The notes below the pieces were generated by a model. That model saw only the letters and a program-made list of their open reading frames with translations, ran no database searches and was not told the origin of the DNA. DNA of 64,000 nt from Candidatus Gottesmanbacteria bacterium GW2011_GWA2_43_14 (GTDB lineage Bacteria > Patescibacteriota > Microgenomatia > 2-02-FULL-39-11): assembly GCA_000999095.1 (NCBI GenBank), contig LCFP01000001.1, positions 205,680 to 269,679 on the forward strand. The letters are read 5' to 3'. The position numbers and the translations under genes were made by a program. Shown here piece after piece: positions 1,744 through 58,323 of this stretch (position 1 is its first letter; every line of letters begins with the position of its first letter).

Positions 1744-1752
1744 TATTTCTCC

Positions 1753-4988: not shown

Positions 4989-4994
4989 TCTAGA

Positions 4995-35340: not shown

Positions 35341-35970
35341 TTATAAAAACGCCAGTGAAAAAAAACCGACGGAAAAACCCAGAAAAATTCCACCGGTTAC
35401 ATCGGAAAACCAGTGCTCACCCAAATAGATCCTAGTGTAGAACATGGCTGTAAATATAACAAAAATTGCCAGGTAAGCCGCTAATTTTGAGCTTTTTTTT
35501 CCGCAGAAAAGCCGCAATAGGATAACGGTTAAAAAGGCAGTCCTGGCCATATGACCTGACGGAAAAGAATAATTGGTCTGGATAATATAACTGGAAGGCA
35601 AGTGCAAATTCAGAATATTTTTGAAAAAAAACAAGGGGGGTTTCGGATGGTAGATAAGAAGTTTGCCCAGCAGTTCCAGCGGATACATCAGCATATAGAT
35701 AAAAATGCCCAGAAAAAGATGTTTCCTTCGGAAAACAAGGTACATAAAAACGGACAAAAGCAAAAAGAGGGTCACTTCGCTTGATGCCAAAAGGGTCAGT
35801 AAGGCAAAAGGTAAATCCAGTTTTTCCGGTGTTAATTTCTGCAGCATTACCATGGACCGGTAGTCAAAATTACGGAAAAGGTCACGGTGCACTATCAGAC
35901 TGAGAAAAACAAAGGATAGGAAAAACAACAGGGAGGCGGTAAGGTAATATATCCTTTTCGGATTACTCAC
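35341..35970 (-). CDS. PAP2-family lipid phosphatase (membrane)
   Basis: PSGHMARTAF and RIYLGEHWFSDV match PAP2 motifs 2 and 3 (PSGH; SR.....H...D). Six TM helices. Confidence 0.7.
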   Translation of the reverse strand: MSNPKRIYYLTASLLFFLSFVFLSLIVHRDLFRNFDYRSMVMLQKLTPEKLDLPFALLTLLASSEVTLFLLLSVFMYLVFRRKHLFLGIFIYMLMYPLELLGKLLIYHPKPPLFFFKNILNLHLPSSYIIQTNYSFPSGHMARTAFLTVILLRLFCGKKSSKLAAYLAIFVIFTAMFYTRIYLGEHWFSDVTGGIFLGFSVGFFSLAFL

Positions 35971-36550
35971 TTTCTTCGTCCTCCCATTTATACAAATTGT
36001 CCCTGATTTTCACGGTCAGGAAACAGCCTGTCTTGAGATAATGCTTTCTCTTGAAATTCCAGGTAAATTCCTTATTCCGGCTGTAGGCATTAAATATCAT
36101 GATGGGATCCCCGTGGGAAACCACCAGAATCTTCTCCCCGGGATACTTTTTTGCTATCCTTTTCACAAACCGCTGCATACGCGCTGCTATTACAGATATC
36201 GACTCCTGCCCCTTTTTTATATTCTCTTCCGCATAAAGCACAGTTTGGATTTTCTCATGGTAATAAGTCAACGGAATGTTCTCGAAAATAGTATCAACTT
36301 CGACCAGAAGACCGGATATCCGCGGTTTTACTCCCACTGTCCCGGCTATTATGGCGCCTGTCTGGCGTGTTCTTAACAAAGGACTTGTAAAGATGCGGTC
36401 TATGTCTTTCTTTTTTAGTTTACTGGCAGCGAGCATTGCCTCCCGGCGGCCTTTTTCAGACAATCCGAAACGCGGCTGCCGGCCGTAGAGAACCCTCTTG
36501 GGATTATGGACTTCGCCATGGCGCATGAATATTAATGTTGTTGTTTTCAT
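35963..36550 (-). CDS. histidine phosphatase (phosphoglycerate-mutase-like) family protein
   Basis: N-terminal LIFMRHGEV (RHG catalytic motif) and downstream SHGDPI. Confidence 0.75.
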   Translation of the reverse strand: MKTTTLIFMRHGEVHNPKRVLYGRQPRFGLSEKGRREAMLAASKLKKKDIDRIFTSPLLRTRQTGAIIAGTVGVKPRISGLLVEVDTIFENIPLTYYHEKIQTVLYAEENIKKGQESISVIAARMQRFVKRIAKKYPGEKILVVSHGDPIMIFNAYSRNKEFTWNFKRKHYLKTGCFLTVKIRDNLYKWEDEESE

Positions 36551-37746
36551 CTTATAAGTTGTCGGTAGACTTTAACTATTTTTTCAGCCTGCTTATCCCA
36601 GCAGTATTTATGACTTTCAGTATAGGCATTTTTTCCCAGTGATTCCATTTTTTGCGGGTTGTGCAAAAGTTCCCATATTTTTTTTGCCAGGTCCTGCGCA
36701 TCCTGGCTTTTGAAAAATATTCCGGTATCTCCATCCTCAATTAAATGTTTTAAACCACCGCTTCCTGAAGCGATAATCGCTGCGCCGCCCGACATGGCTT
36801 CCAATACAACCAGCCCGAATGACTCATAGACCGAAGGCAAAACGACCAAATCCGCAGCCGAATAATACCCCGGCAATCTATTATGGGCTTTACTGCCGAG
36901 AAATTTGATACAACAGCTTAAATTTCTTCCGGCAATATTCCGAACAATTTTTTTGACTTCAGGATTTTGCCAAAATAAACGGCTTTTAATATCACCACCG
37001 ATCAAAAGAACCTGAACCGTCTTCTCAAATTCCGGGTGCTTGTCTGTTAAATTGCCGACAGCATCTATCAATAAATTTATACCCTTAACCGGATCTATCC
37101 TGCCTACGAATAAAATAATTTTTTTAGTTTTGGGCAAATTCAACTTTTCCCTGCTCTTATTTTTGTCCAGCGGCCGGAACAGGTGATGATCGACTCCGGG
37201 TGACACCACATGCACTTTTCCCGGTTTTGTCTGATAATACCTTACTAACTCATCTTTCTCAAGTTCAGTTGAGGCTATTAAAGCCGATGCTTTTGCGGCT
37301 ATGTTTTTTTCCGCTTTAATCCGAAATGAATCGTCAATCCCGGCATACTTTTTTTTCATTTCCCCTAAAGTATGAAAAGTCATGGCCATTGGCTTGTCTG
37401 ACGCTGACTCCAAAAAGCTCAAACCGGAGAAAAAATAATGGGCGTGAAAAATATCATATTCCCATGAATTTTCCTTTATGAATTTGAGCAGGTTTTTACC
37501 GAACTGCCGGCTCTTTATATAATCATTTCCATACCCGCTGTCCAAATGTATCAAACGCACATTATGAACCAACTGATTTATCCGTTTTTCATGGCTTTGA
37601 TGTGTTTTAGTGAATATATCCACCCGGTGTCCCAACTTTCCCAGTTCCCGGGCTAAATTAAGAGTATAAACATTCATCCCGCCGGAAGACAAAACGCCCA
37701 AGCGGGACCGCGGACATGACCAATAGGAAATAAAGGCTATTTGCAC
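36547..37746 (-). CDS. GT4-family glycosyltransferase, MshA-like
   Basis: ISYWSCP...GGMNVYTLNLARELGKLGHRVDIFTK matches the N-terminal MshA-like signature. C-terminal E-x7-E region (LVVLEAMSGGAAIIAS). Confidence 0.8.
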   Translation of the reverse strand: MQIAFISYWSCPRSRLGVLSSGGMNVYTLNLARELGKLGHRVDIFTKTHQSHEKRINQLVHNVRLIHLDSGYGNDYIKSRQFGKNLLKFIKENSWEYDIFHAHYFFSGLSFLESASDKPMAMTFHTLGEMKKKYAGIDDSFRIKAEKNIAAKASALIASTELEKDELVRYYQTKPGKVHVVSPGVDHHLFRPLDKNKSREKLNLPKTKKIILFVGRIDPVKGINLLIDAVGNLTDKHPEFEKTVQVLLIGGDIKSRLFWQNPEVKKIVRNIAGRNLSCCIKFLGSKAHNRLPGYYSAADLVVLPSVYESFGLVVLEAMSGGAAIIASGSGGLKHLIEDGDTGIFFKSQDAQDLAKKIWELLHNPQKMESLGKNAYTESHKYCWDKQAEKIVKVYRQLIR

Positions 37747-37796
37747 GTCATTCTTAAAACTTATATGATCTGATAGTATCAGAATCGGCTCAACTT

Positions 37797-38504
37797 ATGA
37801 AACAGCTGAGTATAAAATTAAGCATTATTCTCCCCACATATAACGAAGCAGGAAATATTATTCCCCTGATTGAGAGCATCCGTAGTAATCTCCCCGGTAA
37901 ATCCTATGAAATAATCATTTCTGATGATGACAGTCCGGACGGTACGGGAAATCTGGCTGTTAAAACATACCATAACGAAAGAAACATTAAAGTTATCATC
38001 AGAAAGAAAGACAAAGGCTTGGCCTATGCCATTGCCGATGGTATTTCCAAAAGCCGCGGGGAATGGATAGCTGTTATGGACACCGATTTCAACCATGATC
38101 CCCAACTGTTGCCCCTGATGCTTTCTTTAACGGGCAAATATGACCTGGTTATCGGTTCCAGATATGTCAAAGGCGGCGGCATGGCTGATCCCCTACGGAA
38201 CCTTTTTAGTCTTTGGTATAACCGCCTTGTCCGTTTTGTTTTGCGGTTGCCTACAAATGACAACCTCTGCGGTTATTTTATGATCAGGCGGCGTATTCTG
38301 AAAGGATTGCCAAAGGATAAAATATTTTCCGGTTACGGCGATTATTTTATCAGGTTGCTGTTTTATTTGAAAAAGCAAAAAATAAGAATTATCGAAATTC
38401 CGGCTTTTTATCGGGAAAGGTTCAGCGGAAAAAGCAAATCCAGATTCCTGCCGATGCTTATAAATTATACACGAACCGTGGTCAGCCTGATGATAAACCG
38501 ATGA
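37797..38504 (+). CDS. GT2 polyprenyl-phosphate sugar synthase (dolichyl-phosphate mannose synthase / Ppm1-like)
   Basis: SIILPTYNEAGNI, ISDDDSPDGT, AVMDTDFNHDP (DxD). 235 aa without TM helices, i.e. DPM1-like. ATGA overlap with the downstream GT-C gene. Confidence 0.8.
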   Translation: MKQLSIKLSIILPTYNEAGNIIPLIESIRSNLPGKSYEIIISDDDSPDGTGNLAVKTYHNERNIKVIIRKKDKGLAYAIADGISKSRGEWIAVMDTDFNHDPQLLPLMLSLTGKYDLVIGSRYVKGGGMADPLRNLFSLWYNRLVRFVLRLPTNDNLCGYFMIRRRILKGLPKDKIFSGYGDYFIRLLFYLKKQKIRIIEIPAFYRERFSGKSKSRFLPMLINYTRTVVSLMINR

Positions 38505-40015
38505 CGAAAACTCAATCCCTTCTGGTTGCTGCCGCTTTTTTTATATATTTGCTGGCAAATGTATTTTTATTAAAAGATTACGGTGTAACCTGGGATTTTT
38601 CCTATCATTATAATGCCGGTTTATTCCATCTGGACAGGACAACTGAAACAGGTTTTAAAATTGGCCCGTCTCCCCCGTTGTCGGATATCCTGCCGGTTTT
38701 AAGCAAAATATTATTTTCCGACCGTCTACGTTGGTTGCCCTGGAACAGCGCTTATAATCTTTATTCTGTTGTACTGGGCAGTACCGGCATTCTGGTTTTA
38801 TTTTTCTTTGCCTCGTCTCTTTTTAATTGGCAAACCGGATTATTTTCCGCGATAATCCTGGCATTACTGCCCAGGTATTTCGGACACCTCCATAACAATA
38901 TGAAAGATATACCGCAGGCAGTTTTCTTTACCCTCTCGCTATACTGTTTCTGGGCTTTGGTCAATAAACCATCTTTTAAAAAACTGATATTTTCCGTGCT
39001 GGCATTTGCACTGGCTTTTAACAGTAAAGTAAATGCGGTTTTTATTCCTTTTATTGCAATTGCCTGGCTGCTGATCCGGATCTTCACCGGGAAAATCCGT
39101 TTAAAGAAGTTAAATTCTTACGTTCATCTTTATTTTTTTCTGGCTCCGCTATTTGCCTTTTTCCTCTGGTCAATTTTTTGGCCGGATCCCCTTGCGCGCC
39201 TGGCTGAAGCGACTCATTCCTACACTACTTCAACTACCAACATGCCGCTTCTCTATTTCGGATCAACCGTTTATTCGGGCAACAACGTCCCCTGGCATTA
39301 CCCATTAGGAATATTTCTGGCTACCACGCCTATTTTAATTATCCTTACCGCGCTTATCGGACTTATGCTGGTCGTAAGGATTATTTTTAAGAGCAAAGCA
39401 GCTCTGTTTACGGTTCTCTGGTTTTTTCTGCCGCTTTCCAGATATCTCAAACCGGGGATGGCTGTCATCGATGACGTCAGGCACTTCATGGAAGTGCTTT
39501 ATCCGCTGTCTTTGCTTGCGGGAATAGGAACACTGACGATCTTTAATCGCCTGCCGTTATTTTATAAACGGGCTGCTTATACTGTATTTTTCATCTATTT
39601 GTTAATTCCGGTAGTCACTTTCCATCCCCATCAAACCAGCTATTTCAGTGAAGCCGTAGGAGGAATTAACAGAGCACAGAATAAATTTGATATTGAATTC
39701 TGGGCTAACGCTTATAAACAGGCACTTCCCTGGCTGAATCAACATGCCCCCTTAAACAGTAAAATTACGGTTGCTATGGCTCCTGACATCGCCCGCCTTT
39801 ATTTGAGGCAGGACCTGAAAGACCGGTTAGGAACTGTCAATCTAGGCATCAGGGATGATTCAGTCTATACCACCTCTGATTACACCGTTATTTTAAACAG
39901 GCAATCCTTCTATAACTGGTATGCCGTAAACTCTTATATGTCGTCCCGGCAGCCGGTTTTTTCCCTGACTGTTCATAATGTTCCGCTCGTCCGGATATAC
40001 CAAAATAAGAAATAG
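38501..40015 (+). CDS. GT-C fold glycosyltransferase, PMT/ArnT (GT39/GT83)-like
   Basis: N-terminal loop motif DYGVTWDFSYHYNAGL, YFGHLHNNMKDIPQAVFF and about 11 TM helices. Translationally coupled to the DPM-synthase-like GT2. Confidence 0.65.
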   Translation: MTKTQSLLVAAAFFIYLLANVFLLKDYGVTWDFSYHYNAGLFHLDRTTETGFKIGPSPPLSDILPVLSKILFSDRLRWLPWNSAYNLYSVVLGSTGILVLFFFASSLFNWQTGLFSAIILALLPRYFGHLHNNMKDIPQAVFFTLSLYCFWALVNKPSFKKLIFSVLAFALAFNSKVNAVFIPFIAIAWLLIRIFTGKIRLKKLNSYVHLYFFLAPLFAFFLWSIFWPDPLARLAEATHSYTTSTTNMPLLYFGSTVYSGNNVPWHYPLGIFLATTPILIILTALIGLMLVVRIIFKSKAALFTVLWFFLPLSRYLKPGMAVIDDVRHFMEVLYPLSLLAGIGTLTIFNRLPLFYKRAAYTVFFIYLLIPVVTFHPHQTSYFSEAVGGINRAQNKFDIEFWANAYKQALPWLNQHAPLNSKITVAMAPDIARLYLRQDLKDRLGTVNLGIRDDSVYTTSDYTVILNRQSFYNWYAVNSYMSSRQPVFSLTVHNVPLVRIYQNKK

Positions 40016-40022
40016 CATCTTT

Positions 40023-41555
40023 TTATTTGGCAAACACCCAGACTAAAGGTACTGCATATCTGGTAACACTGAAAAGTACTTTTTCTTTTTGGATTTTCTC
40101 ATTCTTGAAACTTTCAACGTTGTAAAATGGAAAAAATGAACGGCGGTTGAGAAGGACCGTATAATCGCTGTCGTTAATAGATCTTTTATTCAGATTTTCC
40201 AGAAGGTCCTCTCTCAGATATGTCGCCGCCGTACTTTGAGCCATGACAACATGGATAAATGATCCGCGGGGGGCAATTCCATTCAGCCAGAGAACCGCTT
40301 CCTTTTGGGGAGTACCCCAGAAATCGATGTCGTACTTATCCTGTGCCCCGGAAATTCCAGCGGTTAAAAAATTAAAATAACTGGCCTGGTATGGATGAAA
40401 AACTATTAATATCAAAACAGAATAAAAAGCGGCCGATAAAAACAGAATTGTGACCGGATATTTCTGCCTGATTTTTTTTGTCATGATTCTGTAAACCGCT
40501 GCACCGCCGATTGCTGCAAATGAACCCAGCGGAAAAAGAACTTCCATAAAATGCCTGACACCGTCGATGGCCGCAGCAGTAGGACTGAGGTATCTTATTA
40601 AAGGCACAAAAAACCAGAATATAAAAAGCGAGAATTCACGCTTTCCTTTTAATATATTTCTGGTACAGACAAAAACTCCGATTAAAGACAGGATGATAAT
40701 GGGAGGAGGTGTTGATATCAATAAATACCAGTAAGGGTAATAAATCGGGATGTTGAATCCGGATTGGTAAAAGTTGCCGTTAAGAAGAACGGACATGCCC
40801 AAAGTATTACCGGAGTAAAATGATGGCATCTGCAACAGTTTTGCCAACGGATCCTGCCAAAAAGGCCACCACAACAAAAGCGTTGCCGGAACAACCAATA
40901 GGAAATATTTGAAGATGTGCCGATTGTTTTTATTACCGAACGTCAAATAATAAAGGAAACACACCACAGGTACAAAAACGGAGTTTATTTTGAAATTAAA
41001 AGCAATGGCAGCAGCAACCAAAGCCAGGGCAAGCGATAGCCGACTGGAATTCCGAGTAAATCGGTAAAAGAGGTACACTGCCAGGGCAAACATGACTGCG
41101 TTAGGAATATCCTTCATATTATTGTGCAGATAGGCAAAATATGGCGGCATAAGTCCCAAACTTATGGTACCTATTACAGCTTCCAGAAAGCCGAATATTT
41201 CTAACAGAAAAAAATAGAGAATCAAAAGGCCCAAACTGCCGAAGAAAACCATCGGCAGATTATAGGAAACATCCATTGGTAGTAGATTCCAGTTATTATA
41301 AAAAATTGTCTGGGAGAGTGCCGGAATAATTTGAGTAAAAGGTCCGAACGGGTCATTTACTGTCAGTCTGGGATCGGGATCGGAAAAAGGGATTTTCGTA
41401 TTCTCGGCAGGCAATGGCAGACCCAAATGGTAGAGGCCGGCATAATAGTGGTTATGATAATCCCAGGACAATCCGTAGTCAGGCAGTATGATCAGATTGA
41501 TTAGAAGGTAAAAAAGAAAGATTATAAGGCCGGTTAATTTATGGCTTAATTTCAT
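40023..41555 (-). CDS. GT-C fold glycosyltransferase, paralog of 38501..40015
   Basis: Same motifs: DYGLSWDYHNHYYAGLYHL, YFAYLHNNMKDIPNAVMF. Confidence 0.65.
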   Translation of the reverse strand: MKLSHKLTGLIIFLFYLLINLIILPDYGLSWDYHNHYYAGLYHLGLPLPAENTKIPFSDPDPRLTVNDPFGPFTQIIPALSQTIFYNNWNLLPMDVSYNLPMVFFGSLGLLILYFFLLEIFGFLEAVIGTISLGLMPPYFAYLHNNMKDIPNAVMFALAVYLFYRFTRNSSRLSLALALVAAAIAFNFKINSVFVPVVCFLYYLTFGNKNNRHIFKYFLLVVPATLLLWWPFWQDPLAKLLQMPSFYSGNTLGMSVLLNGNFYQSGFNIPIYYPYWYLLISTPPPIIILSLIGVFVCTRNILKGKREFSLFIFWFFVPLIRYLSPTAAAIDGVRHFMEVLFPLGSFAAIGGAAVYRIMTKKIRQKYPVTILFLSAAFYSVLILIVFHPYQASYFNFLTAGISGAQDKYDIDFWGTPQKEAVLWLNGIAPRGSFIHVVMAQSTAATYLREDLLENLNKRSINDSDYTVLLNRRSFFPFYNVESFKNEKIQKEKVLFSVTRYAVPLVWVFAK

Positions 41556-45014: not shown

Positions 45015-45040
45015 TTATTAAGATGAGTATAGTTCAATTA

Positions 45041-48130: not shown

Positions 48131-48135
48131 TACCG

Positions 48136-50193
48136 TCAGTTTACCCGGAAAATTTCATAATCACTCGACAAATAAACCCGCTCTATCGGCTTTTTTACTT
48201 CATGCGAATTCTCATCAGCTTCAAATGAATAATAGAAATTTATATAGATGGTATCATCAAACTTCATATCAGAGGAAAGAATCAGTTCTTCACCTGCATT
48301 GACTTGTAAAACCATAGGGGCTTCAAAAACAGTATTAATCCCCTCATTGACAGAATTCCATTTCAAACCGTAAAGTGAATTATTTACTTTAATGTTAGCA
48401 TCCGTAAAAATGCCGGGAGCAATATGAATCCCATCCAGTATGAATTCTCCATCCTTATGAAAATAAAACCCGGTTTTCAAAGATGGGTATTTTATTAATT
48501 TTATGGAAGAAGAAACAACACCGTGAGTATCAGTTTTAAGAACAATTACTTCAGGATTTAGGTTATACCACCAATATCTTACATTACTGCATTCATCATA
48601 ATAAAATTTCTCGTATTGGCGGTTTTTATGGATAATAATGCTTCTGATATCAAAATTTCTTAAAAGAGCCAACGTGTCATTAAAATTTTTATCGACATAG
48701 AGCAATTTATCTTTATGCACTTTTTCTGAATCACAAATATACCTTTGGGTATATTCCTGTTCAAAAAAGGACAACGTGCTCTTATTTTCAGCAGTGTCAT
48801 GAAAATAGCCGTCAACAATTTTTTTATGCGTCATGTACGGTAAAACACTCCGGAAGGCATTAGTTGCCGATAATGGAATATTTAAAATTGCTTTTTCGGG
48901 TAGCTGAGCGGCGACTTTACTCTCCATAAACGGCAATGCAAATGTCCGGTGAACAGTAAAAGTCAGTCTTTCCAATAACATTAAAAGTATTAACGGATAA
49001 ATAAATTTTTTGAGTTTGAAAAAAGGAATCACCGACATAAATACCAGTATCAAAATGGAAAAAATAACAATACTTCTTCCGCCTTCAGGCCAATAAGGTA
49101 ATGGAATCATACCTAAGGTGGCTATCAGATAGACTGCCAATGACAATAAAATAAATATCTTTCTGCGGTTTATTTTTTCCTTGAAATAAAATATTATGAA
49201 GATTATCCAGCCTACCAGTCCAGGACTGATTACCTTCTCTATTGAGGCAGAAGAAAAATTCAATTTCGAATATAGAAGATTAATATACTGATTTGGAATT
49301 AGAATGTCAGACAACTGCGGGAGACAGCATTGAACATACCTTCCATAATTAAAGGGGTAAACAAAACTGCCAAAGATTATACCCTTGGCAAATCCGCCAA
49401 AGAAATATAAAGCGATTATTGCATTAAGTAACAGGACAAAATAAAACACTTCCGGTTTATTTCTTACTTTAACTTTTGCCATCTGAAGATAATATATTAT
49501 GACGGCCAGGCTGTCTTTCGGATATAAAAGCAAATATCCGGTCAGAAGAAACAGGAAAAACCAAAATACTATGATTAAATATTGCAATGATCCGAAAGCG
49601 ATTAATAAAATACCGAAGATGATGTTGAAATAAGCGATAAATCCTGCTTTACCTTTATTTCTGAAAAAATCATAAAATGCTTTTGCCAAAAAAGGGAAAC
49701 CGCCAATAAAGGCCAAATTAGGATGTGAGTTGATTCTGGCGATCACATAAGGTGAGAAACCGTAAAAAATACCGGCGAAAAGTCCGAATAATCCAGATTC
49801 TGAAATCGTACTGAAAAATGAATAAGTTATATAAAAATTCAGGAAAAGGATTAAAATTATCACGAGGTTATATGCTAAAGGGAGCGGCAGGATAAATGAA
49901 AGTAAGGCACCGCTAAAGGTTGATAAGACGCCATCATAACCGTGGCTTAACTCGAATCCGTTCGGATAACGTAAAATATCGGTTTTTTCCAGGGCATATT
50001 TTCCTGATCTAAGATTTTCTCCAACCAGGTACATAAAATTAAAAAATTCATACTTATCTCCATGATCACCGAGCAATTCTTTATACGGGTTGATTGAATA
50101 AATCCTGGAGAAAATAAAAGCCAGTATTAACCCGATAATAATGATCTTATATTTGTTCATTTTTAAAAATATATTCATAATACCTACGGCCAA
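48136..50193 (-). CDS. polytopic membrane protein, GT-C-like, paralog A of an unnamed family
   Basis: Shares LGDHGDKYEFFNFMYLVGENL...RYPNGFELSHGYDGVL...LAYNLV...YGFSPYVIARINSHPNLAFIGGFP with 51400..53406. Confidence 0.5.
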   Translation of the reverse strand: MAVGIMNIFLKMNKYKIIIIGLILAFIFSRIYSINPYKELLGDHGDKYEFFNFMYLVGENLRSGKYALEKTDILRYPNGFELSHGYDGVLSTFSGALLSFILPLPLAYNLVIILILFLNFYITYSFFSTISESGLFGLFAGIFYGFSPYVIARINSHPNLAFIGGFPFLAKAFYDFFRNKGKAGFIAYFNIIFGILLIAFGSLQYLIIVFWFFLFLLTGYLLLYPKDSLAVIIYYLQMAKVKVRNKPEVFYFVLLLNAIIALYFFGGFAKGIIFGSFVYPFNYGRYVQCCLPQLSDILIPNQYINLLYSKLNFSSASIEKVISPGLVGWIIFIIFYFKEKINRRKIFILLSLAVYLIATLGMIPLPYWPEGGRSIVIFSILILVFMSVIPFFKLKKFIYPLILLMLLERLTFTVHRTFALPFMESKVAAQLPEKAILNIPLSATNAFRSVLPYMTHKKIVDGYFHDTAENKSTLSFFEQEYTQRYICDSEKVHKDKLLYVDKNFNDTLALLRNFDIRSIIIHKNRQYEKFYYDECSNVRYWWYNLNPEVIVLKTDTHGVVSSSIKLIKYPSLKTGFYFHKDGEFILDGIHIAPGIFTDANIKVNNSLYGLKWNSVNEGINTVFEAPMVLQVNAGEELILSSDMKFDDTIYINFYYSFEADENSHEVKKPIERVYLSSDYEIFRVN

Positions 50194-51400
50194 TTTTGCC
50201 GAAGTCCCTTTTTTCTCTCATTAAATTGCTGAAGACTTTTAACTTATCCATAATTTTCAAATCCGGATTTTTTAATTTTTTTTCCCATGAGTAATCACTT
50301 AAGGGGAAAAACATATCTTCCGAAGTTAAACGGGCTTTCTCCATTGCTTTTTGAAAATCAGCCGTATTCATATAGCCGGAAATTGCTTCGGATAAAATGA
50401 CCGGTTTACCGTAAGTGAAAGCCATGGCTAACGGACCAGAGGATGACATAAAAGTCCTGTATGGAAAAACAACCAGATCAGCGGCCTGATAATACAGAGA
50501 AATTTTTTCTTCACCTACAAAACCGGTAACCACTATTCTTCCTTTTGATGAAAGGGCTAATTCATCAATTTTTTTTACATATTCCATATAGTATGGTTTG
50601 TCCCGGTGATTCGGATTTGTTCCACCGGCAATGATTAATTTTACGTCAGAATTCACGATTTTTTCCGCTATCCAATCAACTCCCTTATACCAGGCAATAA
50701 AGCCGAAATACAACAGGACCGTCTCTTTTTTAATACCTAATTTTTCCCTGGCTGATTGATAACTTAAAGCCGGTTTAATCGCTTCAACACCGTGTGGAAT
50801 AACGGTTATTTTCTCCTGTAATTTAATATCGAATAATTTCCTAAAGTCATCCTCGAAAACAATCGTTCTGTAGGACGATTTGACAGACAAGTTAAAAAAC
50901 ATCCTGATAAGAATGTTGAAAAATTTAGATGAAAAACTATTTTGAGTGATGCCTATATGACCGGATAATTCATTAATATCAACAATTATCTGATGAGGAA
51001 TAAAATATACCTGTTTACCGAGCATAGAAAGCACTCTCAGAAACATTGGAAATAAAAGCAGATATATTGGTCCGCCAAACATGGAAACTTCAAATTCTAC
51101 CAGAATTTTACCGGCATCACTTTTCAGGCAGGCGGCAATTATCGAAAGATAGGACAGCAGACTGCTTCTTTTCCAGATCCTTTTGACTTCGAGACCGTTT
51201 TCATAGTATTCAGATTCCGACCCTTTCCCCAATTTTTCGGCTAAAACGGTTAATTTCAACCCGCTGCCAGATGATTTTGCCGCTTTAAGAATATTCAGCA
51301 GAGTATTTTTGGTATATGAGGCAATACCGACAGTGCCGGCTCCGTGCACTGAGCCTTTTTCGGGATAACTTGAAACAACCAATAGTTTATTTTCCATCAT
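50147..51400 (-). CDS. GT4-family (GT-B) glycosyltransferase
   Basis: C-terminal VTGFVGEEKISLYYQAADLVVFPY...GPLAMAFTYGKPVILS matches the retaining GT4 nucleotide-binding region. Confidence 0.65.
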   Translation of the reverse strand: MMENKLLVVSSYPEKGSVHGAGTVGIASYTKNTLLNILKAAKSSGSGLKLTVLAEKLGKGSESEYYENGLEVKRIWKRSSLLSYLSIIAACLKSDAGKILVEFEVSMFGGPIYLLLFPMFLRVLSMLGKQVYFIPHQIIVDINELSGHIGITQNSFSSKFFNILIRMFFNLSVKSSYRTIVFEDDFRKLFDIKLQEKITVIPHGVEAIKPALSYQSAREKLGIKKETVLLYFGFIAWYKGVDWIAEKIVNSDVKLIIAGGTNPNHRDKPYYMEYVKKIDELALSSKGRIVVTGFVGEEKISLYYQAADLVVFPYRTFMSSSGPLAMAFTYGKPVILSEAISGYMNTADFQKAMEKARLTSEDMFFPLSDYSWEKKLKNPDLKIMDKLKVFSNLMREKRDFGKIGRRYYEYIFKNEQI

Positions 51401-53406
51401 CAGTTTAAATCGTATACTTCATGTTCATTACTGGTAAAAACTTTTCTGAAAGCCGGTTTTGTGAAAACAGATCCTGTTTTTTCAAATTTGTAAAATATTG
51501 TTAAATAAACTGTATCAGCTAATTTCCCGTCAGAAGATATGATTATTTTGTCTCCGGAATGTACTTCGATTAATACAGGATCGGCAAAATTGCTTTCCAG
51601 ACCGCTTGATCCAACAATCCAATCCGGTTTTATTAGATTATTCATCGGTAAATAGACAGTTGTATTTGTTAAATTCGGCGGATCCAATAAAATACCCGTT
51701 AGTTCAAAAATCCCCCGGTAAGGAAAATAAATTTCGAACTCAAAAATATCGCGGTATGATAATTCATAATTATTTATACCGATATCTTCCGTTGTTTTAT
51801 CAATTATTAAGGTTTCAGGCATCCTGCGATACCACCAACTCCTCATTGATCTGCATTCTTCAAAGTAAAACTGTTCATTATTTAATTTCTTGAATAAAAC
51901 TAAAGTGTATATACCATTAGTTTTCAAAAAATTAAGAAACTCCTCCTGATAGTTATTATTGATGCTATTTTCAGTATAAGAGTATTCCTGCCCGCATTCC
52001 AGATTCTGAAGCATCGTATTTTTAATGAAAGATTTACTTTTATCTCCATCGGCCGTGTAATGGAAATAACCATCGATGATTTTCTTATTGAAAAAGTATG
52101 GTAAAGTGCTTTTGTAGCTGTCCGTCTCGTTAATTGGCATATTTAAAACCGCTTCTCCGTCTAAAGCCCTGACCACCGAGGAAACCTGGGTGTCTATCAC
52201 AGAAGAAGAATATATCCTGAAGAAAAACCTTTCCAGTATTATCACCAACAGTACCACATATAACAGTTTCCGTTTTAGATTCAATAAATAATAACCGCTG
52301 AATATTGAAGCAATCAGCGAAAAAATCACGACCAGCCTGCCAGGTTCCGGAATAAATGGCAACGGCAACAAATTCAGAACAAATAAAATATAAAGTGCCA
52401 AAATTATTATCAGCCAATAAACTCCCCTTCTGATAAAAAAGAAGGCAGCCAAGCTGAAAATCAGCCATTCAAATATGCCGATCGAAATTGCTTTTTCAAT
52501 GGAATCTGGCGATGGATTCAATTTTTGCCAGATAGTACCTGAGTATTGGTTTGGCACAAAAATATCCGTCCAAGAAGGCGAACAACATTCGTAAATTTCC
52601 GAAGATTTGGCTGAAGTATGCGTAAATACGTCACTCAGGTGGGTAAAATATCCTTGATAAAAATAGGCTGCCAGTAATATCAGCACCGCCAGGCTAACAG
52701 AAATTTTGAACTTATCTTGCTTCAAATAACCGAGAAATTGGCGACAATATGAAATCGCTATTCTAGAATTAAAAATCACAAAAAATATCACCGCCAGTGT
52801 TATTATCTCAATAAGTATTAATCCGTATTGCAGTGAACCGAAAACGACTGTTATGAGTCCTACGGTCACCAAAAGATAATCCAGTTGGGTCCTCGGCTTA
52901 TTTTCCTTTACTCTGGAAAATAAACTTATCAGGCTGTATCCTAATAAGGGAAACCCACCGGTAAAAGCAAGGTTTAAATGGCTGTTGATTCTGGCTAAAA
53001 CAAAGGGAGAATAAGCATAAAAAACCGTCGCTATGACTGAAACTAATTTATTCCTGTATAGCTTATAAAAAAACAGGTAGGAAAAACCCGCATTGGCAAT
53101 AAGAAGAACGAGTACAGTCAGATTATAGGCCAGGACATGCGGAATAACTAAACCTAATAAGGCTCCTGTCATAACCGGAAGGACGCCGTCAAAACCGTAT
53201 GATAGGTCGAATCCCACCGGGTAACGGAATATATCAGTCGGGGAAAATGGCGCCTTGAGGCTTTTGAGATTTTCAGATACCAGATACTGAAAACCGAAAT
53301 ACTGGTAATTGTCACCGCCGTCGCCGATTAACCTGCTTGAAGGATTTATATAAAGTATCCCTGATAAAAAGAGACTTAAAATTAGAGCAACAGCAGCAAT
53401 TTTCAT
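51400..53406 (-). CDS. polytopic membrane protein, GT-C-like, paralog B (see 48136..50193)
   Basis: IGDGGDNYQYFGFQYLVSENL...RYPVGFDLSYGFDGVL...LAYNLT...YAYSPFVLARINSHLNLAFTGGFP. Confidence 0.5.
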   Translation of the reverse strand: MKIAAVALILSLFLSGILYINPSSRLIGDGGDNYQYFGFQYLVSENLKSLKAPFSPTDIFRYPVGFDLSYGFDGVLPVMTGALLGLVIPHVLAYNLTVLVLLIANAGFSYLFFYKLYRNKLVSVIATVFYAYSPFVLARINSHLNLAFTGGFPLLGYSLISLFSRVKENKPRTQLDYLLVTVGLITVVFGSLQYGLILIEIITLAVIFFVIFNSRIAISYCRQFLGYLKQDKFKISVSLAVLILLAAYFYQGYFTHLSDVFTHTSAKSSEIYECCSPSWTDIFVPNQYSGTIWQKLNPSPDSIEKAISIGIFEWLIFSLAAFFFIRRGVYWLIIILALYILFVLNLLPLPFIPEPGRLVVIFSLIASIFSGYYLLNLKRKLLYVVLLVIILERFFFRIYSSSVIDTQVSSVVRALDGEAVLNMPINETDSYKSTLPYFFNKKIIDGYFHYTADGDKSKSFIKNTMLQNLECGQEYSYTENSINNNYQEEFLNFLKTNGIYTLVLFKKLNNEQFYFEECRSMRSWWYRRMPETLIIDKTTEDIGINNYELSYRDIFEFEIYFPYRGIFELTGILLDPPNLTNTTVYLPMNNLIKPDWIVGSSGLESNFADPVLIEVHSGDKIIISSDGKLADTVYLTIFYKFEKTGSVFTKPAFRKVFTSNEHEVYDLN

Positions 53407-53436
53407 ACTTTACAGTCATACCGTTATTTTCCTAAA

Positions 53437-54324
53437 TTAAAAAAGATAAGATCTAATCGTCTTAACCGCTTTTGCCAGCATTTGGAACCACCTTAATTCC
53501 GTTCTTTTAATACCTGTCTCGTAAGACCCAAAAACATCCATTATTCTGATATAGATTAAATCCCAGAATGATTTAGGGGCGTCTTTTATAATATTAACCT
53601 TGCTCCTTCTGTCATCACTCCAGATTACCGGAATTTCTTTATATTCAAAACCCGCTATTCTGCCCAAAAACATAAGTTCCGCATCGAATCCCCAGTCTTC
53701 AATCTTAAGATTGGGAAAGAGGGCATCCTTGGCCTCTCTCGAAAAGGCTTTAAAACCGCAGGTAAAATCGCTCACCCAGGTATTCAGGATTAAATTGGAC
53801 AGTAAAGTAAAAGCCTTACCTAAGGATTCCCTGATAAACGGCTGGTGGCGCACAACTGTCGAGTGACTGTTTTTCCGGGTACCGATGATGATGGGAATTC
53901 TTTCTCTTATGGACGGCATAAATTTCCTGACCTCGCTCAGGTCAGTCGACATATCCGCATCCAAAAAAAGAGAATAGTCGGAAGTCGACTCCTTCATTCC
54001 GGCGGCAATGGCATACCCTTTTCCCCTATTCTCCTTATATGAGACAAGTTGCAGATTTACACTAACTCCAGGGATGGTGCTGGTTTTAGCTCCTCCTGGG
54101 ACGGTGGCAGGCTGAACGGAGTGAAGCCATGACTCCTCCCAGGTGGAGCTTTTAATAAACTCTTTAATCTTTTTAACAGTCCCGTCAGTCGAACCGTCAT
54201 CCACAAAGATGACCTTTTCCAGCATAAGTCCGCCCGGCAAGCTGAAACTCGCCAGTGAACTGAAAGTCTTGTCCAGTCTAGCTTCTTCGTTATAAACCGG
54301 TATGACAAGAGAAATTGTTTTCAT
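53437..54324 (-). CDS. GT2 polyprenyl-phosphate sugar synthase-like glycosyltransferase
   Basis: ISLVIPVYNEEARL, FVDDGSTDGT, LFLDADMSTD (DxD). I chose the start at MKTISLV. Confidence 0.7.
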   Translation of the reverse strand: MKTISLVIPVYNEEARLDKTFSSLASFSLPGGLMLEKVIFVDDGSTDGTVKKIKEFIKSSTWEESWLHSVQPATVPGGAKTSTIPGVSVNLQLVSYKENRGKGYAIAAGMKESTSDYSLFLDADMSTDLSEVRKFMPSIRERIPIIIGTRKNSHSTVVRHQPFIRESLGKAFTLLSNLILNTWVSDFTCGFKAFSREAKDALFPNLKIEDWGFDAELMFLGRIAGFEYKEIPVIWSDDRRSKVNIIKDAPKSFWDLIYIRIMDVFGSYETGIKRTELRWFQMLAKAVKTIRSYLF

Positions 54325-54397
54325 ATTTATAAATTCATTTGGCTTTCCGTTGCCGGTTGCGAAGCATAACCTCGCAACCAACCTCTGATTCCAAATG

Positions 54398-54685: not shown

Positions 54686-54864
54686 AAATACCCTTACTTC
54701 ATCTCTAGAAACAGAGCGTCAGTAAGGGCAGAATTAACCTTTAATTTTACTAAACTATCCTATAGTTGTCAATAAAATGATATGGTTAAATTGTTGCATA
54801 GTTAAATTGTTTAAAACCATTCAACCATATAGCAATTCAGCCATAATGTTGATATAATAATTGT

Positions 54865-58267: not shown

Positions 58268-58323
58268 TACCTCCACCGTCCCAGGAGAAATATATTCCCT
58301 CCACCTGGGAGGAGGAGTTAAAT

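What the first reader, a model, noticed from the sequence alone, without database searches (positions are those of the whole stretch)
35341..54381. 20-kb glycosylation supercluster with unusual density of GT-C-fold membrane glycosyltransferases fed by three polyprenyl-phosphate sugar synthases
Within about 19 kb there are at least six large polytopic membrane proteins with GT-C-like features. Two are PMT/ArnT-like paralogs (DYG..WD..HY..AG, YxHNNMKDIP). One is YfhO-like. One is a 1029-aa AftD/Emb-like protein. Two are paralogs of an unnamed family (GDxGDxY..F.F.YLV.ENL...RYP.GF.LS.G.DGVL...ARINSH.NLAF.GGFP). There are also three DPM-synthase-like GT2s, one translationally coupled to a PMT-like gene as in Ppm1/Pmt or ArnC/ArnT pairs. 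In addition there are two GT4s, a YdjC deacetylase, PAP2 and SPase I. Together with the sugar-nucleotide genes at 1..6217 this implies a complex extracytoplasmic glycan, such as protein O-glycosylation or a lipoglycan/teichoic-like polymer, assembled from lipid-linked monosaccharides. The unnamed paralog family may be a new GT-C clade.
Basis: partly seen in the sequence, partly recalled or inferred. Interest (0 to 1): 0.55.

Follow-up and report, generated by a model that had tools for sequence, protein, structure and literature searches.

The report
GT-C-rich envelope glycosylation locus, CPR bacterium
A tiny-genome Candidate Phyla Radiation bacterium (Gottesmanbacteria) carries a conserved ~19-kb block of cell-surface sugar-attaching genes, including six membrane glycosyltransferases of the GT-C type, two of which belong to a family absent from Pfam, NCBIfam and the PDB.

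The parts
35341..35970 (-). PAP2-family membrane phosphatase (209 aa, ~5 TM). Weakly similar to undecaprenyl-diphosphatases. A possible lipid-carrier phosphatase.
   Evidence: Pfam PAP2 2.3e-13. NCBIfam SepP 7.8e-7, below cut-off. Conserved next to the His phosphatase in L013.
35963..36550 (-). Histidine-phosphatase-superfamily enzyme (195 aa), overlapping both neighbouring genes.
   Evidence: Pfam His_Phos_1 3e-29. The GT4a + His_Phos pair is conserved in L013.
36547..37746 (-). GT4a, a cytoplasmic GT-B glycosyltransferase, MshA/sucrose-phosphate-synthase-like. Possibly a separate sugar-phosphate glycoside pathway together with the adjacent phosphatase.
   Evidence: Pfam Glycos_transf_1 6.9e-42. 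NCBIfam MshA 1.6e-79, 268 bits against a cut-off of 462. PDB 3c4q 2.9e-53 and 6kih 4.6e-46.
37797..38504 (+). GT2a, a 235-aa DPM1-like polyprenyl-phosphate sugar synthase candidate with no TM helix. Translationally coupled to PMT2a.
   Evidence: Pfam GT2 2.4e-32. PDB 5mlz DPMS 9.9e-31 over residues 5-231. ATGA overlap. 39% identical (2e-40) to the GT2 half of a GT2::PMT_2 fusion in L015. No TM segment by hydropathy.
38501..40015 (+). PMT2a, a PMT_2-family GT-C membrane glycosyltransferase (504 aa).
   Evidence: Pfam PMT_2 6.1e-14, 53 bits against a cut-off of 26.1. 38% identical to PMT2b. About 8-10 hydrophobic segments.
40023..41555 (-). PMT2b, the paralogous PMT_2-family GT-C (510 aa) and the last gene of the long minus-strand array.
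   Evidence: Pfam PMT_2 2.5e-10. An orthologous region is present in L013 but split over three frames.
41539..43650 (-). YfhO-like GT-C (703 aa).
   Evidence: Pfam YfhO 4.3e-13, 49 bits against a cut-off of 28.5. Weak NCBIfam hits to PgfM2/PgfM1. Ortholog in L013 at 46% identity.
43647..45014 (-). Signal peptidase I (S26) with a ~250-aa C-terminal extension (weak YkwD/CAP-like hit). Sits between the AftD-like and YfhO genes.
   Evidence: Pfam S26 3.4e-24. NCBIfam sigpep_I 2.1e-24 and YkwD 1.8e-4 at residues 231-341. A full-length 56%-identical ortholog sits in the same position in L013.
45041..48130 (-). AftD-like GT-C (1029 aa from the first start, 1014 aa as publicly annotated). It has an N-terminal GT-C membrane domain, large beta-rich extracytoplasmic domains resembling carbohydrate-binding modules, and a C-terminal TM helix.
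48136..50193 (-). Unnamed-family GT-C paralog A (685 aa; the true start may be the ATG at 50178 or 50160). It has clear orthologs in other Gottesmanbacteria.
   Evidence: 34% identical to paralog B. 62%, 62% and 51% identical to genes in L006, L014 and L013 at the same position. No Pfam or NCBIfam hit.
50147..51400 (-). GT4b, a divergent GT-B (GT4-like) glycosyltransferase (417 aa) and a constant member of the conserved module.
   Evidence: Pfam Glyco_trans_1_4 1.1e-11, C-terminal half only. Orthologs at 32-55% identity sit beside the unnamed GT-C in 9 loci.
51400..53406 (-). Unnamed-family GT-C paralog B (668 aa). Predicted 13 TM helices plus a C-terminal alpha/beta domain and a beta-sandwich domain.
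53437..54381 (-). GT2b, a DPM1/ArnC/GtrB-like GT2 (314 aa from TTG; probably starts at the ATG at 54324). First enzyme gene of the conserved module.
   Evidence: Pfam GT2 2.4e-22. All 7 PDB hits are DPMS, ArnC or GtrB. Orthologs at 43-63% identity precede the module in L001, L002, L004-L007, L013 and L014.
54744..54772 (-). Best sigma-70-like promoter match in the region (TTGACA-17-TAAAAT), upstream of a 95-aa ORF and GT2b. A candidate promoter for the 8-gene minus-strand array.
   Evidence: 11 of 12 consensus positions. This is a pattern match only.
57527..58327 (-). YdjC-family carbohydrate deacetylase. Outside the stated coordinates and overlapping GT2c.
   Evidence: Pfam YdjC 5.4e-36. NCBIfam chitin disaccharide deacetylase 5.5e-22 and HpnK 5e-21, both below cut-off.
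58324..59103 (-). GT2c, the third DPM1/ArnC-like GT2 (259 aa). Outside the stated coordinates.
   Evidence: Pfam GT2 1e-18. Top PDB hits are DPMS 1.2e-8 and ArnC.

Best explanation
The block is a conserved cell-envelope glycosylation locus of a Gottesmanbacteria (CPR/Patescibacteria) genome. It most likely works by the two-step, lipid-carrier route.

(1) Soluble DPM1-like GT2 enzymes on the cytoplasmic face load single sugars from nucleotide sugars onto a polyprenyl phosphate.
(2) The lipid-linked sugar is flipped by an unidentified flippase.
(3) GT-C enzymes transfer the sugar to acceptors outside the membrane.

The core is a four-gene module: GT2b, the GT4-like GT-B (GT4b), the unnamed GT-C (two copies here) and the AftD-like GT-C. 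I propose that GT4b primes a lipid-linked acceptor in the cytoplasm, and that the two GT-C types, which both carry beta-sandwich domains (CBM-like in the AftD-like protein), extend or branch a glycan polymer outside the membrane. That polymer would be a lipoglycan or a wall polysaccharide, formally like mycobacterial LM/LAM/arabinan synthesis.

GT2a with PMT2a (and PMT2b), and the YfhO-like enzyme, are further synthase/GT-C circuits that decorate either the same polymer or Ser/Thr/Pro-rich surface proteins.

Shown here: the folds, the family relationships, the invariant residues, the gene coupling and the synteny. Inferred: donor and acceptor identities, the flipping step, and that the genes act in one pathway.
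For: FOLD OF THE UNNAMED FAMILY.
- The predicted helix order gives 13 TM helices, N-in/C-out, with long loops after TM1 and TM9 as in PglB, STT3 and ArnT (my reading of the secondary-structure string).
- D32 sits at the first residue of the first juxtamembrane helix and is invariant in 149/149 aligned relatives. R357, K441 and N95 are near-invariant, and a conserved Cys471/Cys518 pair lies in the C-terminal domain.
- A conserved, catalytically essential Asp at the tip of JM helix 1 is the hallmark of GT-C_A enzymes (PMC12041299).

AftD-LIKE PROTEIN.

GT2 ENZYMES.
- All three have DPMS as best PDB match, followed by ArnC and GtrB. Their top NCBIfam hits are ArnC, PgfS, PpgS and Dol-P-hexose transferase.
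- GT2a overlaps PMT2a by ATGA.
- A GT2a-like domain is fused to a PMT_2 GT-C in a Microgenomates genome.

SYNTENY.
- GT2b, GT4b, the unnamed GT-C and the AftD-like gene lie adjacent in L001-L007, L013 and L014.
- L013, at about 50% amino-acid identity, keeps nearly the whole block in order.
- The eight minus-strand genes from 54381 to 40023 have gaps or overlaps of 47 nt or less.
- A short-form family member lies among Wzx, Wzy_C and GT4 polysaccharide genes in L015.

PRECEDENT. GtrB/PgtC2 and PgfS/PgfM1 (PMC12041528), and the synthase + flippase + GT-C-with-CBM systems (PMC11127046).
Against: - No biochemical or expression data exist. Every function is by homology or fold.
- No GtrA, SMR, MATE or Wzx-type flippase was found anywhere in the 64-kb window.
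- None of the three GT2s has the TM helices seen in PfDPMS, GtrB and ArnC, so membrane association must come from a partner.
- All NCBIfam hits for the GT2s and GT-Cs are far below the curated cut-offs.
- The GT2 genes that precede the AftD-like gene in L010-L012 are not GT2b orthologs, so the GT2/AftD-like pairing involves more than one GT2 type.
- GT4a + His phosphatase resemble soluble sugar-phosphate pathways and may be unrelated.
- The model coordinates could not be inspected, so the placement of D32 rests on the secondary-structure string.
Confidence: 0.6

Rival explanations
1. The locus is mainly a protein O-glycosylation system. The PMT_2 and YfhO enzymes, and possibly the unnamed and AftD-like ones, transfer single sugars from polyprenyl-P-sugars onto Ser/Thr/Pro-rich secreted, sortase-anchored or lipoprotein substrates. 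This would resemble actinobacterial Ppm1/Pmt or streptococcal GtrB/PgtC2 and PgfS/PgfM1.
For: - PMT_2 and YfhO Pfam matches.
- YfhO-family enzymes glycosylate Ser/Thr-rich disordered regions (PMC12041528).
- The window encodes a sortase (14064-14759).
- It also encodes several Ser/Thr/Pro-rich surface proteins: 15232-17580 with SAP/GPS repeats, 14681-15235 and 25750-26508.
- A VPETG-bearing DUF11/CLIPPER protein with a TPTP linker lies at 59188-59937, and a lipoprotein-like protein with a TEPTPEP linker at 55648-56367.
- In L010-L012, sortase and CLIPPER genes lie 2-4 genes upstream of the AftD-like gene.
- A signal peptidase is embedded in the array.
Against: - The candidate substrates are 4-40 kb from the cluster, not inside it.
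- No match to the canonical PMT family (PF02366) or to MIR domains was returned.
- A cytoplasmic GT4 is a constant module member, which a simple one-sugar protein modification does not need.
- A family member in L015 sits in a Wzx/Wzy polysaccharide locus.
Confidence: 0.25
2. The block is not one functional system. It is a juxtaposition of several independent envelope functions that stay together through shared ancestry in a small, gene-dense genome. Those functions would be a small-molecule glycoside pathway, lipid-carrier recycling, protein secretion, and several unrelated glycan-modifying enzymes. 'Supercluster' would then overstate its unity.
For: - GT4a + His phosphatase look like MshA/SPS + phosphatase pairs.
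- Only the four-gene module recurs across the distant lineages sampled. PMT_2, YfhO, SPase, PAP2 and GT4a are syntenic only in the Gottesmanbacteria relative L013.
- GT2c/YdjC form a separate operon 3 kb away.
- The 48-52 kb segment has a lower GC content (0.35 against about 0.43) than the rest of the block.
Against: - Eight genes from GT2b to PMT2b are co-directional with gaps or overlaps of 47 nt or less, which is operon-like.
- The order is retained at only about 50% amino-acid identity in L013.
- The enrichment is extreme: 6 GT-C, 2 GT2 and 2 GT4 among 13 genes.
Confidence: 0.25
3. The unnamed family has the GT-C fold but is not a polyprenyl-P-monosaccharide transferase. It could be a non-catalytic scaffold (like PIG-U), an oligosaccharyltransferase or ligase using polyprenyl-PP-oligosaccharide, or a lipid-linked sugar translocator.
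For: - No flippase is identifiable in the window.
- D29 of the GDGGD motif is not universally conserved (119/153).
Against: - Invariant D32, near-invariant R357 and K441, and conserved His143/Asn145 in predicted outside loops are typical of catalytic GT-Cs (PMC12041299; PMC11127046).
- The gene is consistently adjacent to a DPM1-like GT2 that would make a monosaccharide donor.
- No WWDxG-type OST motif is among the invariant or near-invariant columns listed by the alignments; no targeted motif search was run.
Confidence: 0.12

Closest known systems
Mycobacterial/corynebacterial lipomannan-LAM and arabinogalactan machinery (Ppm1 GT2 donor synthase; PimA/PimB' GT4; GT-C enzymes PimE, MptA/B, EmbA-C, AftA-D, clustered at aftA-embCAB)
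   Same: - The same combination of parts: a DPM1-like GT2, a cytoplasmic GT4, and several clustered GT-C enzymes, one with AftD-like architecture and CBM-like domains.
- TM-less Ppm1-type catalytic GT2 (plus background knowledge).
- A PAP2 phosphatase nearby, as with Rv3807c in the DPA pathway (background knowledge).
   Different: - No sequence-level membership. The window's 1029-aa protein does not hit PF11847, and the profile finds no PDB sequence.
- The protein is about 1000 aa against about 1400 aa for AftD, and no acyl-carrier-protein feature was tested.
- No UbiA-type DPPR synthase was seen.
- The organism is a CPR bacterium with no known mycolate or arabinogalactan envelope.
- Donors and acceptors are unknown.
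Two-step extracytoplasmic glycosylation pairs: GtrB/PgtC2 and PgfS/PgfM1-M2 in streptococci, CsbB/YfhO and GtlA/GtlB in Bacillus and Listeria (PMC12041528)
   Same: - A GT2 polyprenyl-P-sugar synthase plus a YfhO-family GT-C.
- The YfhO Pfam match is above cut-off.
- PgfS, PgfM1 and PgfM2 are among the top NCBIfam hits.
- Ser/Thr/Pro-rich surface proteins and a sortase are present in the window.
   Different: - The NCBIfam scores are tiny relative to their cut-offs (26 against 1500 bits).
- The window's YfhO-like gene is not adjacent to a GT2. It is flanked by SPase I and PMT_2.
- The substrates are untested.
ArnC/ArnT (Und-P-Ara4FN synthase plus GT-C lipid A transferase)
   Same: - A GT2 followed directly by a PMT_2/ArnT-type GT-C, as with GT2a-PMT2a.
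- ArnC is the second-best PDB and NCBIfam match of the GT2s.
- The GT2c + YdjC deacetylase pair is formally like ArnC + ArnD, a lipid-linked donor synthase plus de-acylase (inference).
   Different: - ArnC has two TM helices and the window's GT2s have none.
- No ArnA, ArnB, ArnE or ArnF genes were seen.
- CPR bacteria are generally considered to lack lipid A (background knowledge, not tested here).
- PMT2a gives no PDB sequence hit to ArnT.
GT136 three-component systems (polyprenyl-P-ribose synthase + MATE flippase + GT-C with C-terminal CBM; PMC11127046)
   Same: - A GT-C membrane domain followed by a C-terminal beta-rich domain.
- Functionally important Asp/Glu just after TM1, a His in an early loop and an Arg near residue 350. 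In ORF12 these are D31, E34, H106 and R349. In the unnamed family they are D29/D32, H143 and R357.
- It was founded as a new CAZy family for the same reason, a lack of sequence similarity to existing families.
   Different: - The donor synthase here is a GT2, not a phosphoribosyltransferase.
- No MATE flippase was found.
- ORF12 is predicted to have 11 TM helices against about 13 here.
- Sequence membership could not be tested because no GT136 sequence was available to the tools.

Membership tests
GT-C superfamily, GT-C_A class (unnamed 668/685-aa family) | Polytopic membrane domain structurally superimposable on solved GT-C enzymes | tested here: met
GT-C superfamily, GT-C_A class (unnamed 668/685-aa family) | Conserved, catalytically essential Asp at the tip of juxtamembrane helix 1 in the first extracytoplasmic loop (PMC12041299) | tested here: met
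   D32 is the first residue of helix 32-48, which follows TM1 (2-15). It is invariant in 149/149 aligned relatives. Its position was judged from the secondary-structure string, not from coordinates.
GT-C superfamily, GT-C_A class (unnamed 668/685-aa family) | Uses a polyprenyl-phosphate-linked sugar donor and transfers it on the extracytoplasmic side | not testable with these tools
   The only evidence is contextual: adjacency to a DPM1-like GT2 in at least 8 loci.
Any existing curated family for the unnamed paralogs (Pfam-A 2025, NCBIfam r20, PDB sequences) | Significant profile or sequence match | tested here: not met
   No Pfam family at E<=1 beyond scattered single-member noise for 28 members. 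No NCBIfam hit. PDB best E is 0.2, to MsbA, which is noise. The only links are hhalign to the AftD-like family (92% probability) and to the window's YfhO-like protein (78%). CAZy membership was not testable.
AftD / PF11847 GT-C_AftD (1029-aa protein) | Match to the AftD N-terminal GT-C profile | tested here: not met
   The window protein has no Pfam hit except noise. Six of 30 relatives hit PF11847 weakly, best 7.6e-7. The family profile finds no PDB sequence.
AftD / PF11847 GT-C_AftD (1029-aa protein) | AftD-type architecture: GT-C domain plus large periplasmic CBM-containing region plus C-terminal TM helix or helices | tested here: met
AftD / PF11847 GT-C_AftD (1029-aa protein) | Arabinofuranosyltransferase activity with decaprenyl-P-arabinose; acyl-carrier-protein binding | not testable with these tools
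   No DPA-pathway genes (UbiA-type synthase, DprE1/E2) were seen among the window ORFs scanned.
Protein O-mannosyltransferase (GT39, PMT) | Match to the PMT family profile, with MIR domains in a luminal loop | tested here: not met
   Only PF13231 PMT_2 is matched, over residues ~85-229. No PMT (PF02366) or MIR hit was returned at E<=0.01. No PDB Pmt hit by sequence.
PMT_2 (PF13231; ArnT/PMT-like GT-C) | Score above the Pfam gathering threshold | tested here: met
   53.0 and 41.2 bits against a cut-off of 26.1.
YfhO (PF09586) | Score above the Pfam gathering threshold | tested here: met
   49 bits against a cut-off of 28.5, in two stretches. The best stretch covers only the C-terminal 50 residues. 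The match is therefore partial.
Polyprenyl-phosphate glycosyltransferases of GT2 (DPM1/Ppm1/GtrB/ArnC type) | GT-A catalytic domain most similar to DPMS, ArnC and GtrB, with the DXD motif | tested here: met
   PDB best hit is 5mlz DPMS for all three GT2s (9.9e-31, 9.5e-10, 1.2e-8), followed by ArnC and GtrB. The motifs PTYNE/PVYNE and DTD/DAD/DID are visible in the sequences. That these motifs mark this subgroup is background knowledge.
Polyprenyl-phosphate glycosyltransferases of GT2 (DPM1/Ppm1/GtrB/ArnC type) | C-terminal transmembrane helices (PfDPMS, GtrB, ArnC type) | tested here: not met
   No hydrophobic segment in GT2a, GT2b or GT2c. This resembles the TM-less human DPM1 and mycobacterial Ppm1 catalytic subunits, which need a membrane partner (background knowledge).
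Polyprenyl-phosphate glycosyltransferases of GT2 (DPM1/Ppm1/GtrB/ArnC type) | Formation of polyprenyl-P-sugar from NDP-sugar | not testable with these tools
   All NCBIfam equivalog hits are far below cut-off.
GT136 (CAZy; PMC11127046) | Sequence similarity to C. youngae ORF12 | not tested
   No GT136 sequence was available. Only architectural and positional parallels are noted.

The most novel reading that the evidence does not exclude
The GT2 / GT4-like / unnamed GT-C / AftD-like GT-C module builds a glycopolymer specific to the CPR (a lipoglycan or wall polysaccharide) that is a defining envelope component of Microgenomates-type Patescibacteria. The unnamed protein would found a new CAZy GT-C family. 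The polymer could mediate attachment to host cells in these episymbiotic, genome-reduced bacteria.
Probability: 0.3. Interest if true: 0.65.

Novelty: new variant of a known kind. Interest (0 to 1): 0.45.

Why it matters
CPR/Patescibacteria make up a large share of bacterial diversity. They have genomes of about 1 Mb, and almost nothing is known experimentally about their envelopes.

Here about 2% of such a genome is spent on one glycosylation block with six GT-C enzymes, and nearly the whole block is retained in a relative at about 50% protein identity. That points to an important surface glycan.

The analysis yields a concrete, testable unit:
- a four-gene module that recurs in every related contig sampled that was long enough to show its neighbours;
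- an uncatalogued GT-C family with a clear candidate catalytic residue (D32);
- a Rosetta-stone fusion (GT2::PMT_2) that supports direct synthase/GT-C partnership.

The mechanism class itself, a lipid-linked monosaccharide donor plus a GT-C, is well known. New GT-C families are still being founded (GT136 in 2024). The advance is therefore incremental for glycobiology, but useful for CPR cell biology and for family curation in Pfam and CAZy.

Tried and rejected
- PDB sequence searches with the unnamed-family profile, the AftD-like protein and its profile, PMT2a and the YfhO-like protein gave nothing meaningful.
- The afdb50 fold library was unavailable, so no nearest-AFDB-family or organism information was obtained.
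A 6-sequence alignment gave only 6 genome loci because the method depends on short conserved patterns. No systematic taxonomic census was therefore possible.
- The listing of cluster members on 10 short-form or fusion relatives returned singletons, with one name only (Microgenomates).
- hhalign of the unnamed family against PMT2a, and of the AftD-like family against the YfhO-like protein, was not significant.
- The 531-aa polytopic protein at 20930-22525 was tested as a possible seventh GT-C. It has no Pfam hit and no hhalign relation to either family, so it stays unassigned.
- The search for a flippase found none. I screened all ORFs of at least 80 aa with at least 3 hydrophobic segments and ran Pfam on the unassigned candidates (6227-6499 and 20930-22525). 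The 90-aa 3-TM ORF at 6227-6499 has only sub-threshold DUF hits.
- Literature searches for GT-C in CPR, Patescibacteria or Gottesmanbacteria returned nothing relevant.
- The third protein-homolog search was left unused, because no remaining question justified its cost.

Full report
SOURCE AND GENE MAP

The 668-aa product of 51400-53406(-) is 100% identical to a hypothetical protein of 'Candidatus Gottesmanbacteria bacterium GW2011_GWA2_4...'. The window therefore comes from a Candidate Phyla Radiation (Microgenomates/Patescibacteria) genome.

ORF listing and Pfam scans give this map:
- PAP2: 35341-35970(-)
- Histidine phosphatase: 35963-36550(-)
- GT4a: 36547-37746(-)
- GT2a: 37797-38504(+)
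- PMT_2 GT-C 'PMT2a': 38501-40015(+)
- PMT_2 GT-C 'PMT2b': 40023-41555(-)
- YfhO-like: 41539-43650(-)
- Signal peptidase I with a ~250-aa extension: 43647-45014(-)
- A 1029-aa membrane protein: 45041-48130(-)
- Unnamed membrane protein A, 685 aa: 48136-50193(-)
- GT4-like 'GT4b': 50147-51400(-)
- Unnamed membrane protein B, 668 aa: 51400-53406(-)
- GT2b: 53437-54381(-)

The eight genes from GT2b down to PMT2b are co-directional, with gaps or overlaps of 47 nt or less. The best promoter-like match in the region (11 of 12 positions) lies just upstream, at 54772-54744 on the minus strand. That is a pattern match only.

CHECK OF THE OBSERVATION

The six GT-C-like membrane proteins, both paralog pairs (38% and 34% identity), the quoted motifs, the ATGA coupling of GT2a to PMT2a, two GT4s, PAP2 and SPase I are all real. 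So are the rmlABCD-like genes, UDP-glucose dehydrogenase and an epimerase at 775-6217.

The coordinates are wrong in one respect. The third DPM-synthase-like GT2 (58324-59103) and the YdjC deacetylase (57527-58327) are a separate overlapping pair 3-5 kb beyond the stated end. The sugar-nucleotide genes are about 29 kb away, behind many unrelated genes.

THE UNNAMED PARALOG FAMILY

Absence from curated resources.
- No family is matched in Pfam-A (2025), even at E<=1, for any of 28 members.
- There is no NCBIfam match and no PDB sequence match.

Family size.
- The word-indexed search found 33 relatives, named only as hypothetical proteins of Gottesmanbacteria and Shapirobacteria.
- An exhaustive profile search of 1.84 billion cluster representatives found 256 at E<=1e-30 and 2918 at E<=1e-10.
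- These include about 550-620-aa forms that lack the last domain, and two ~1000-aa fusions. One fusion has an N-terminal half that hits GT87.
- Source names where available are Gottesmanbacteria, Shapirobacteria, WWE3, 'Patescibacteria group' and Microgenomates. There is one 4-kb contig in a bin labelled Gammaproteobacteria, which I suspect is mis-binned.

Fold.
- An AlphaFold2 model from a 28-sequence alignment is confident (pLDDT 89.4, pTM 0.88).
- From the DSSP string I count 13 membrane helices (N-in, C-out) with long outside loops after TM1 and TM9, followed by an alpha/beta domain and a beta-sandwich domain.

Conserved residues.
- The GDGGD motif follows TM1, and D32 is the first residue of the first juxtamembrane helix (32-48).
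- Across 153 relatives of at least 480 aa, D32 is present in 149 of 149 aligned sequences and N95 in 149 of 149.
- R357 is present in 147, K441 in 146 and C471 in 148. D29 is present in only 119.
- A conserved, essential Asp at the tip of JM helix 1 is the stated hallmark of GT-C_A enzymes (PMC12041299). The D/E-after-TM1, His and Arg-~350 pattern also parallels the mutationally validated GT136 founder (PMC11127046).
- Profile-profile comparison links the family weakly to the 1029-aa family (92% probability, E 7e-7) and to the window's YfhO-like protein (78%). It does not link to PMT2a.

Conclusion. This is a GT-C_A-fold family, very probably catalytic, that Pfam, NCBIfam and the PDB do not cover.

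THE 1029-AA PROTEIN

- It has at least 805 relatives. Those with names are mostly Patescibacteria.
- The window copy has no Pfam hit. Six of 30 relatives weakly match PF11847 (GT-C_AftD) and three match PF10131.
- An Asp (D40, in SGWDNLHPE) after TM1 is invariant.

'AftD-like' is a fair description of the architecture, but membership of the AftD family is not met at the sequence level.

THE GT2 ENZYMES

- All three have P. furiosus dolichyl-phosphate mannose synthase as best PDB match (9.9e-31, 9.5e-10, 1.2e-8), followed by ArnC and GtrB.
- Their leading NCBIfam hits are ArnC, PgfS, PpgS, AglJ and Dol-P-hexose transferase, all far below the equivalog cut-offs.
- None has a hydrophobic helix, so they resemble the TM-less DPM1/Ppm1 type that needs a membrane partner (background knowledge).
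- GT2a is translationally coupled to PMT2a. In a 1.02-Mb Microgenomates contig (L015), a GT2a-like domain (39% identity, 2e-40) is fused to a PMT_2 GT-C. Neighbouring genes there encode Wzx, three Wzy_C proteins, GT4s, a PTPS_related membrane protein and a short-form member of the unnamed family.
- That fusion is Rosetta-stone evidence, at family level, for a GT2/PMT_2 partnership.

SYNTENY, THE MAIN NEW RESULT

Nine other loci carry orthologs of GT2b (43-63% identity), GT4b (32-55%), the unnamed GT-C and the AftD-like protein side by side. They come from Shapirobacteria, other Gottesmanbacteria, unclassified Patescibacteria and metagenomes. The gene order is either GT2-unk-GT4-big or GT2-GT4-unk-big (L001-L007, L013, L014). 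In the window both positions are filled (unkB and unkA).

- Paralog A has clear orthologs in other Gottesmanbacteria (51-62% identity).
- Paralog B is an extra copy, about equally distant from all relatives.

In Gottesmanbacteria RBG_16_37_8 (L013, about 50% protein identity) nearly the entire block is retained in order: GT2b, GT4b, unkA, AftD-like, SPase with extension, YfhO, a PMT2b region split over three frames, two GT2s, GT4a, His phosphatase and PAP2. The 'supercluster' is therefore a conserved feature of the lineage. Within it sits a more widely conserved four-gene core.

MECHANISM (BEST EXPLANATION, CONFIDENCE ABOUT 0.6)

1. DPM1-like GT2s make polyprenyl-P-monosaccharides at the cytoplasmic face.
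2. An unidentified flippase moves them across the membrane.
3. The GT-C enzymes transfer the sugars outside the membrane.

For the core module I infer a polymer acceptor. I base this on the CBM-like domains of the AftD-like enzyme, the less specific beta-sandwich of the unnamed enzyme, the constant cytoplasmic GT4-like partner, and the polysaccharide-locus context of a family member (L015). GT4b would prime a lipid-linked acceptor, and the GT-Cs would extend or branch a lipoglycan or wall polysaccharide. The formal analogy is PimA/PimB' + Ppm1 + the GT-C enzymes of mycobacterial LM/LAM/arabinan.

PMT2a/b and YfhO could decorate the same polymer. Alternatively they could O-glycosylate the Ser/Thr/Pro-rich surface proteins encoded elsewhere in the window, as in GtrB/PgtC2 and PgfS/PgfM1 (PMC12041528). 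GT2c + YdjC could supply a de-N-acetylated lipid-linked amino sugar, by analogy with ArnC/ArnD (inference only).

- Shown: folds, family relations, invariant residues, gene coupling and synteny.
- Inferred: donors, acceptors, flipping, and the unity of the pathway.

WEAKNESSES AND RIVALS

- No flippase of the GtrA, SMR, MATE or Wzx type is recognisable in the window.
- GT4a is MshA/sucrose-phosphate-synthase-like (NCBIfam 1.6e-79, below cut-off; PDB 3c4q 2.9e-53) and is paired with a histidine phosphatase. This looks like a soluble sugar-phosphate glycoside pathway and may be unrelated.
- The GT2s that precede AftD-like genes in L010-L012 are not GT2b orthologs.
- The 48-52 kb segment has a lower GC content (0.35) than its surroundings.
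- Rivals: a mainly protein-O-glycosylation role (0.25), a conserved but functionally heterogeneous neighbourhood (0.25), and a non-canonical role for the unnamed GT-C-fold protein (0.12).

NOVELTY AND SCORE

The mechanism class is well known, and clustered GT-C genes have precedent (aftA-embCAB in mycobacteria; background knowledge). Three things are new:
- a GT-C family without any curated model;
- its conserved four-gene partnership with an AftD-like GT-C in the CPR loci sampled;
- the retention of nearly the whole GT-C-rich block in a second Gottesmanbacteria genome of a lineage whose genomes are typically about 1 Mb.

I found no literature on GT-C enzymes in CPR bacteria. I rate it a new variant of a known kind, interest 0.45.

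Noticed in passing
L010 6297-13084; L011 7419-13114; L012 6786-12994; window 59188-59937 and 14064-14759: In three other Patescibacteria contigs the AftD-like GT-C is immediately preceded by a ~295-307-aa GT2. In L010 and L012 a sortase gene lies four genes upstream. A CLIPPER/DUF11 protein lies three genes upstream in L010 and L011; the ~206-aa protein at that position in L012 has no Pfam hit. The window has a DUF11 protein ending in VPETG + TM + KKSKKD (a sortase signal) with an EEEPTPTPQEEQE linker, next to GT2c/YdjC. It also has a sortase at 14064-14759. This may link sortase-anchored surface proteins to this glycosylation machinery.
   Followed up: partly
window 14681-17580, 25750-26508, 55648-56367: Candidate O-glycosylation substrates. 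A 782-aa protein has N-terminal GPSAPSAP repeats and a C-terminal TM + RRRKK anchor. A 184-aa Pro/Thr-rich protein and a 252-aa protein with a T/P/A-rich stretch and C-terminal anchor are also present. A lipoprotein-like protein (signal ...LVLSAC) carries a TEPTPEP linker.
   Followed up: no
window 43647-45014; L013 8954-10318: Signal peptidase I carries a ~250-aa C-terminal extension with a weak YkwD/CAP-like hit (E 1.8e-4). The full-length fusion is 56% identical and at the same position (between the AftD-like and YfhO genes) in another Gottesmanbacteria genome. A separate CAP-domain membrane protein lies at 6483-7349.
   Followed up: partly
L015 5896-8238: A 780-aa GT2::PMT_2 fusion in a 1.02-Mb Microgenomates contig. 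Its GT2 half is 39% identical to window GT2a. Its PMT_2 half is not BLAST-similar to PMT2a.
   Followed up: yes
P0028 (1027 aa) and P0254 (997 aa), metagenomic proteins: Two-GT-C fusions. An N-terminal membrane domain (GT87 Pfam hit, 2.5e-6, in P0028) is followed by a short-form member of the unnamed family (profile positions ~24-528).
   Followed up: partly
L013 12467-14029: The PMT2b ortholog of Gottesmanbacteria RBG_16_37_8 is split over three reading frames (290, 210 and 134 aa ORFs). It is either a pseudogene or an assembly frameshift.
   Followed up: partly
window 20930-22525 (+): A 531-aa polytopic membrane protein (~8 hydrophobic segments, motif SSDTDLGWHLKYGEY after the second hydrophobic segment). 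It has no Pfam hit and no hhalign relation to the two GT-C families. It could be another divergent membrane glycosyltransferase or polymerase.
   Followed up: partly
window ~8000-14000: A low-GC island (GC 0.30-0.33 against ~0.45). It carries an M23 peptidase, a CelA-like processive GT2 (10949-12571, NCBIfam CelA 5.5e-51, below cut-off) and an HTH regulator (13038-13493). It may have been acquired horizontally.
   Followed up: no
window 48000-52000: GC drops to 0.35 across unkA, GT4b and part of unkB, against 0.41-0.45 for the other GT-C genes. This could reflect composition bias or a different history for this part of the module.
   Followed up: no
window 6227-6499 (-): A 90-aa ORF with three hydrophobic segments lies directly upstream of the rmlA-like gene. 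It has only sub-threshold DUF hits. I considered it as a small flippase candidate, but nothing supports that.
   Followed up: partly
window 34635-35393 (-): A 252-aa protein with no Pfam or NCBIfam hit. It contains a GIDCSGFVYRVW motif reminiscent of NlpC/P60 cysteine peptidases (my recollection, untested). It lies between a Mur-ligase-like gene and PAP2.
   Followed up: no
window 53437-54381 and 45041-48130: The mechanical ORF starts are probably too far upstream. GT2b homology begins at residue ~20 (ATG at 54324). The public annotation of the AftD-like gene gives 1014 aa (start near 48085).
   Followed up: partly
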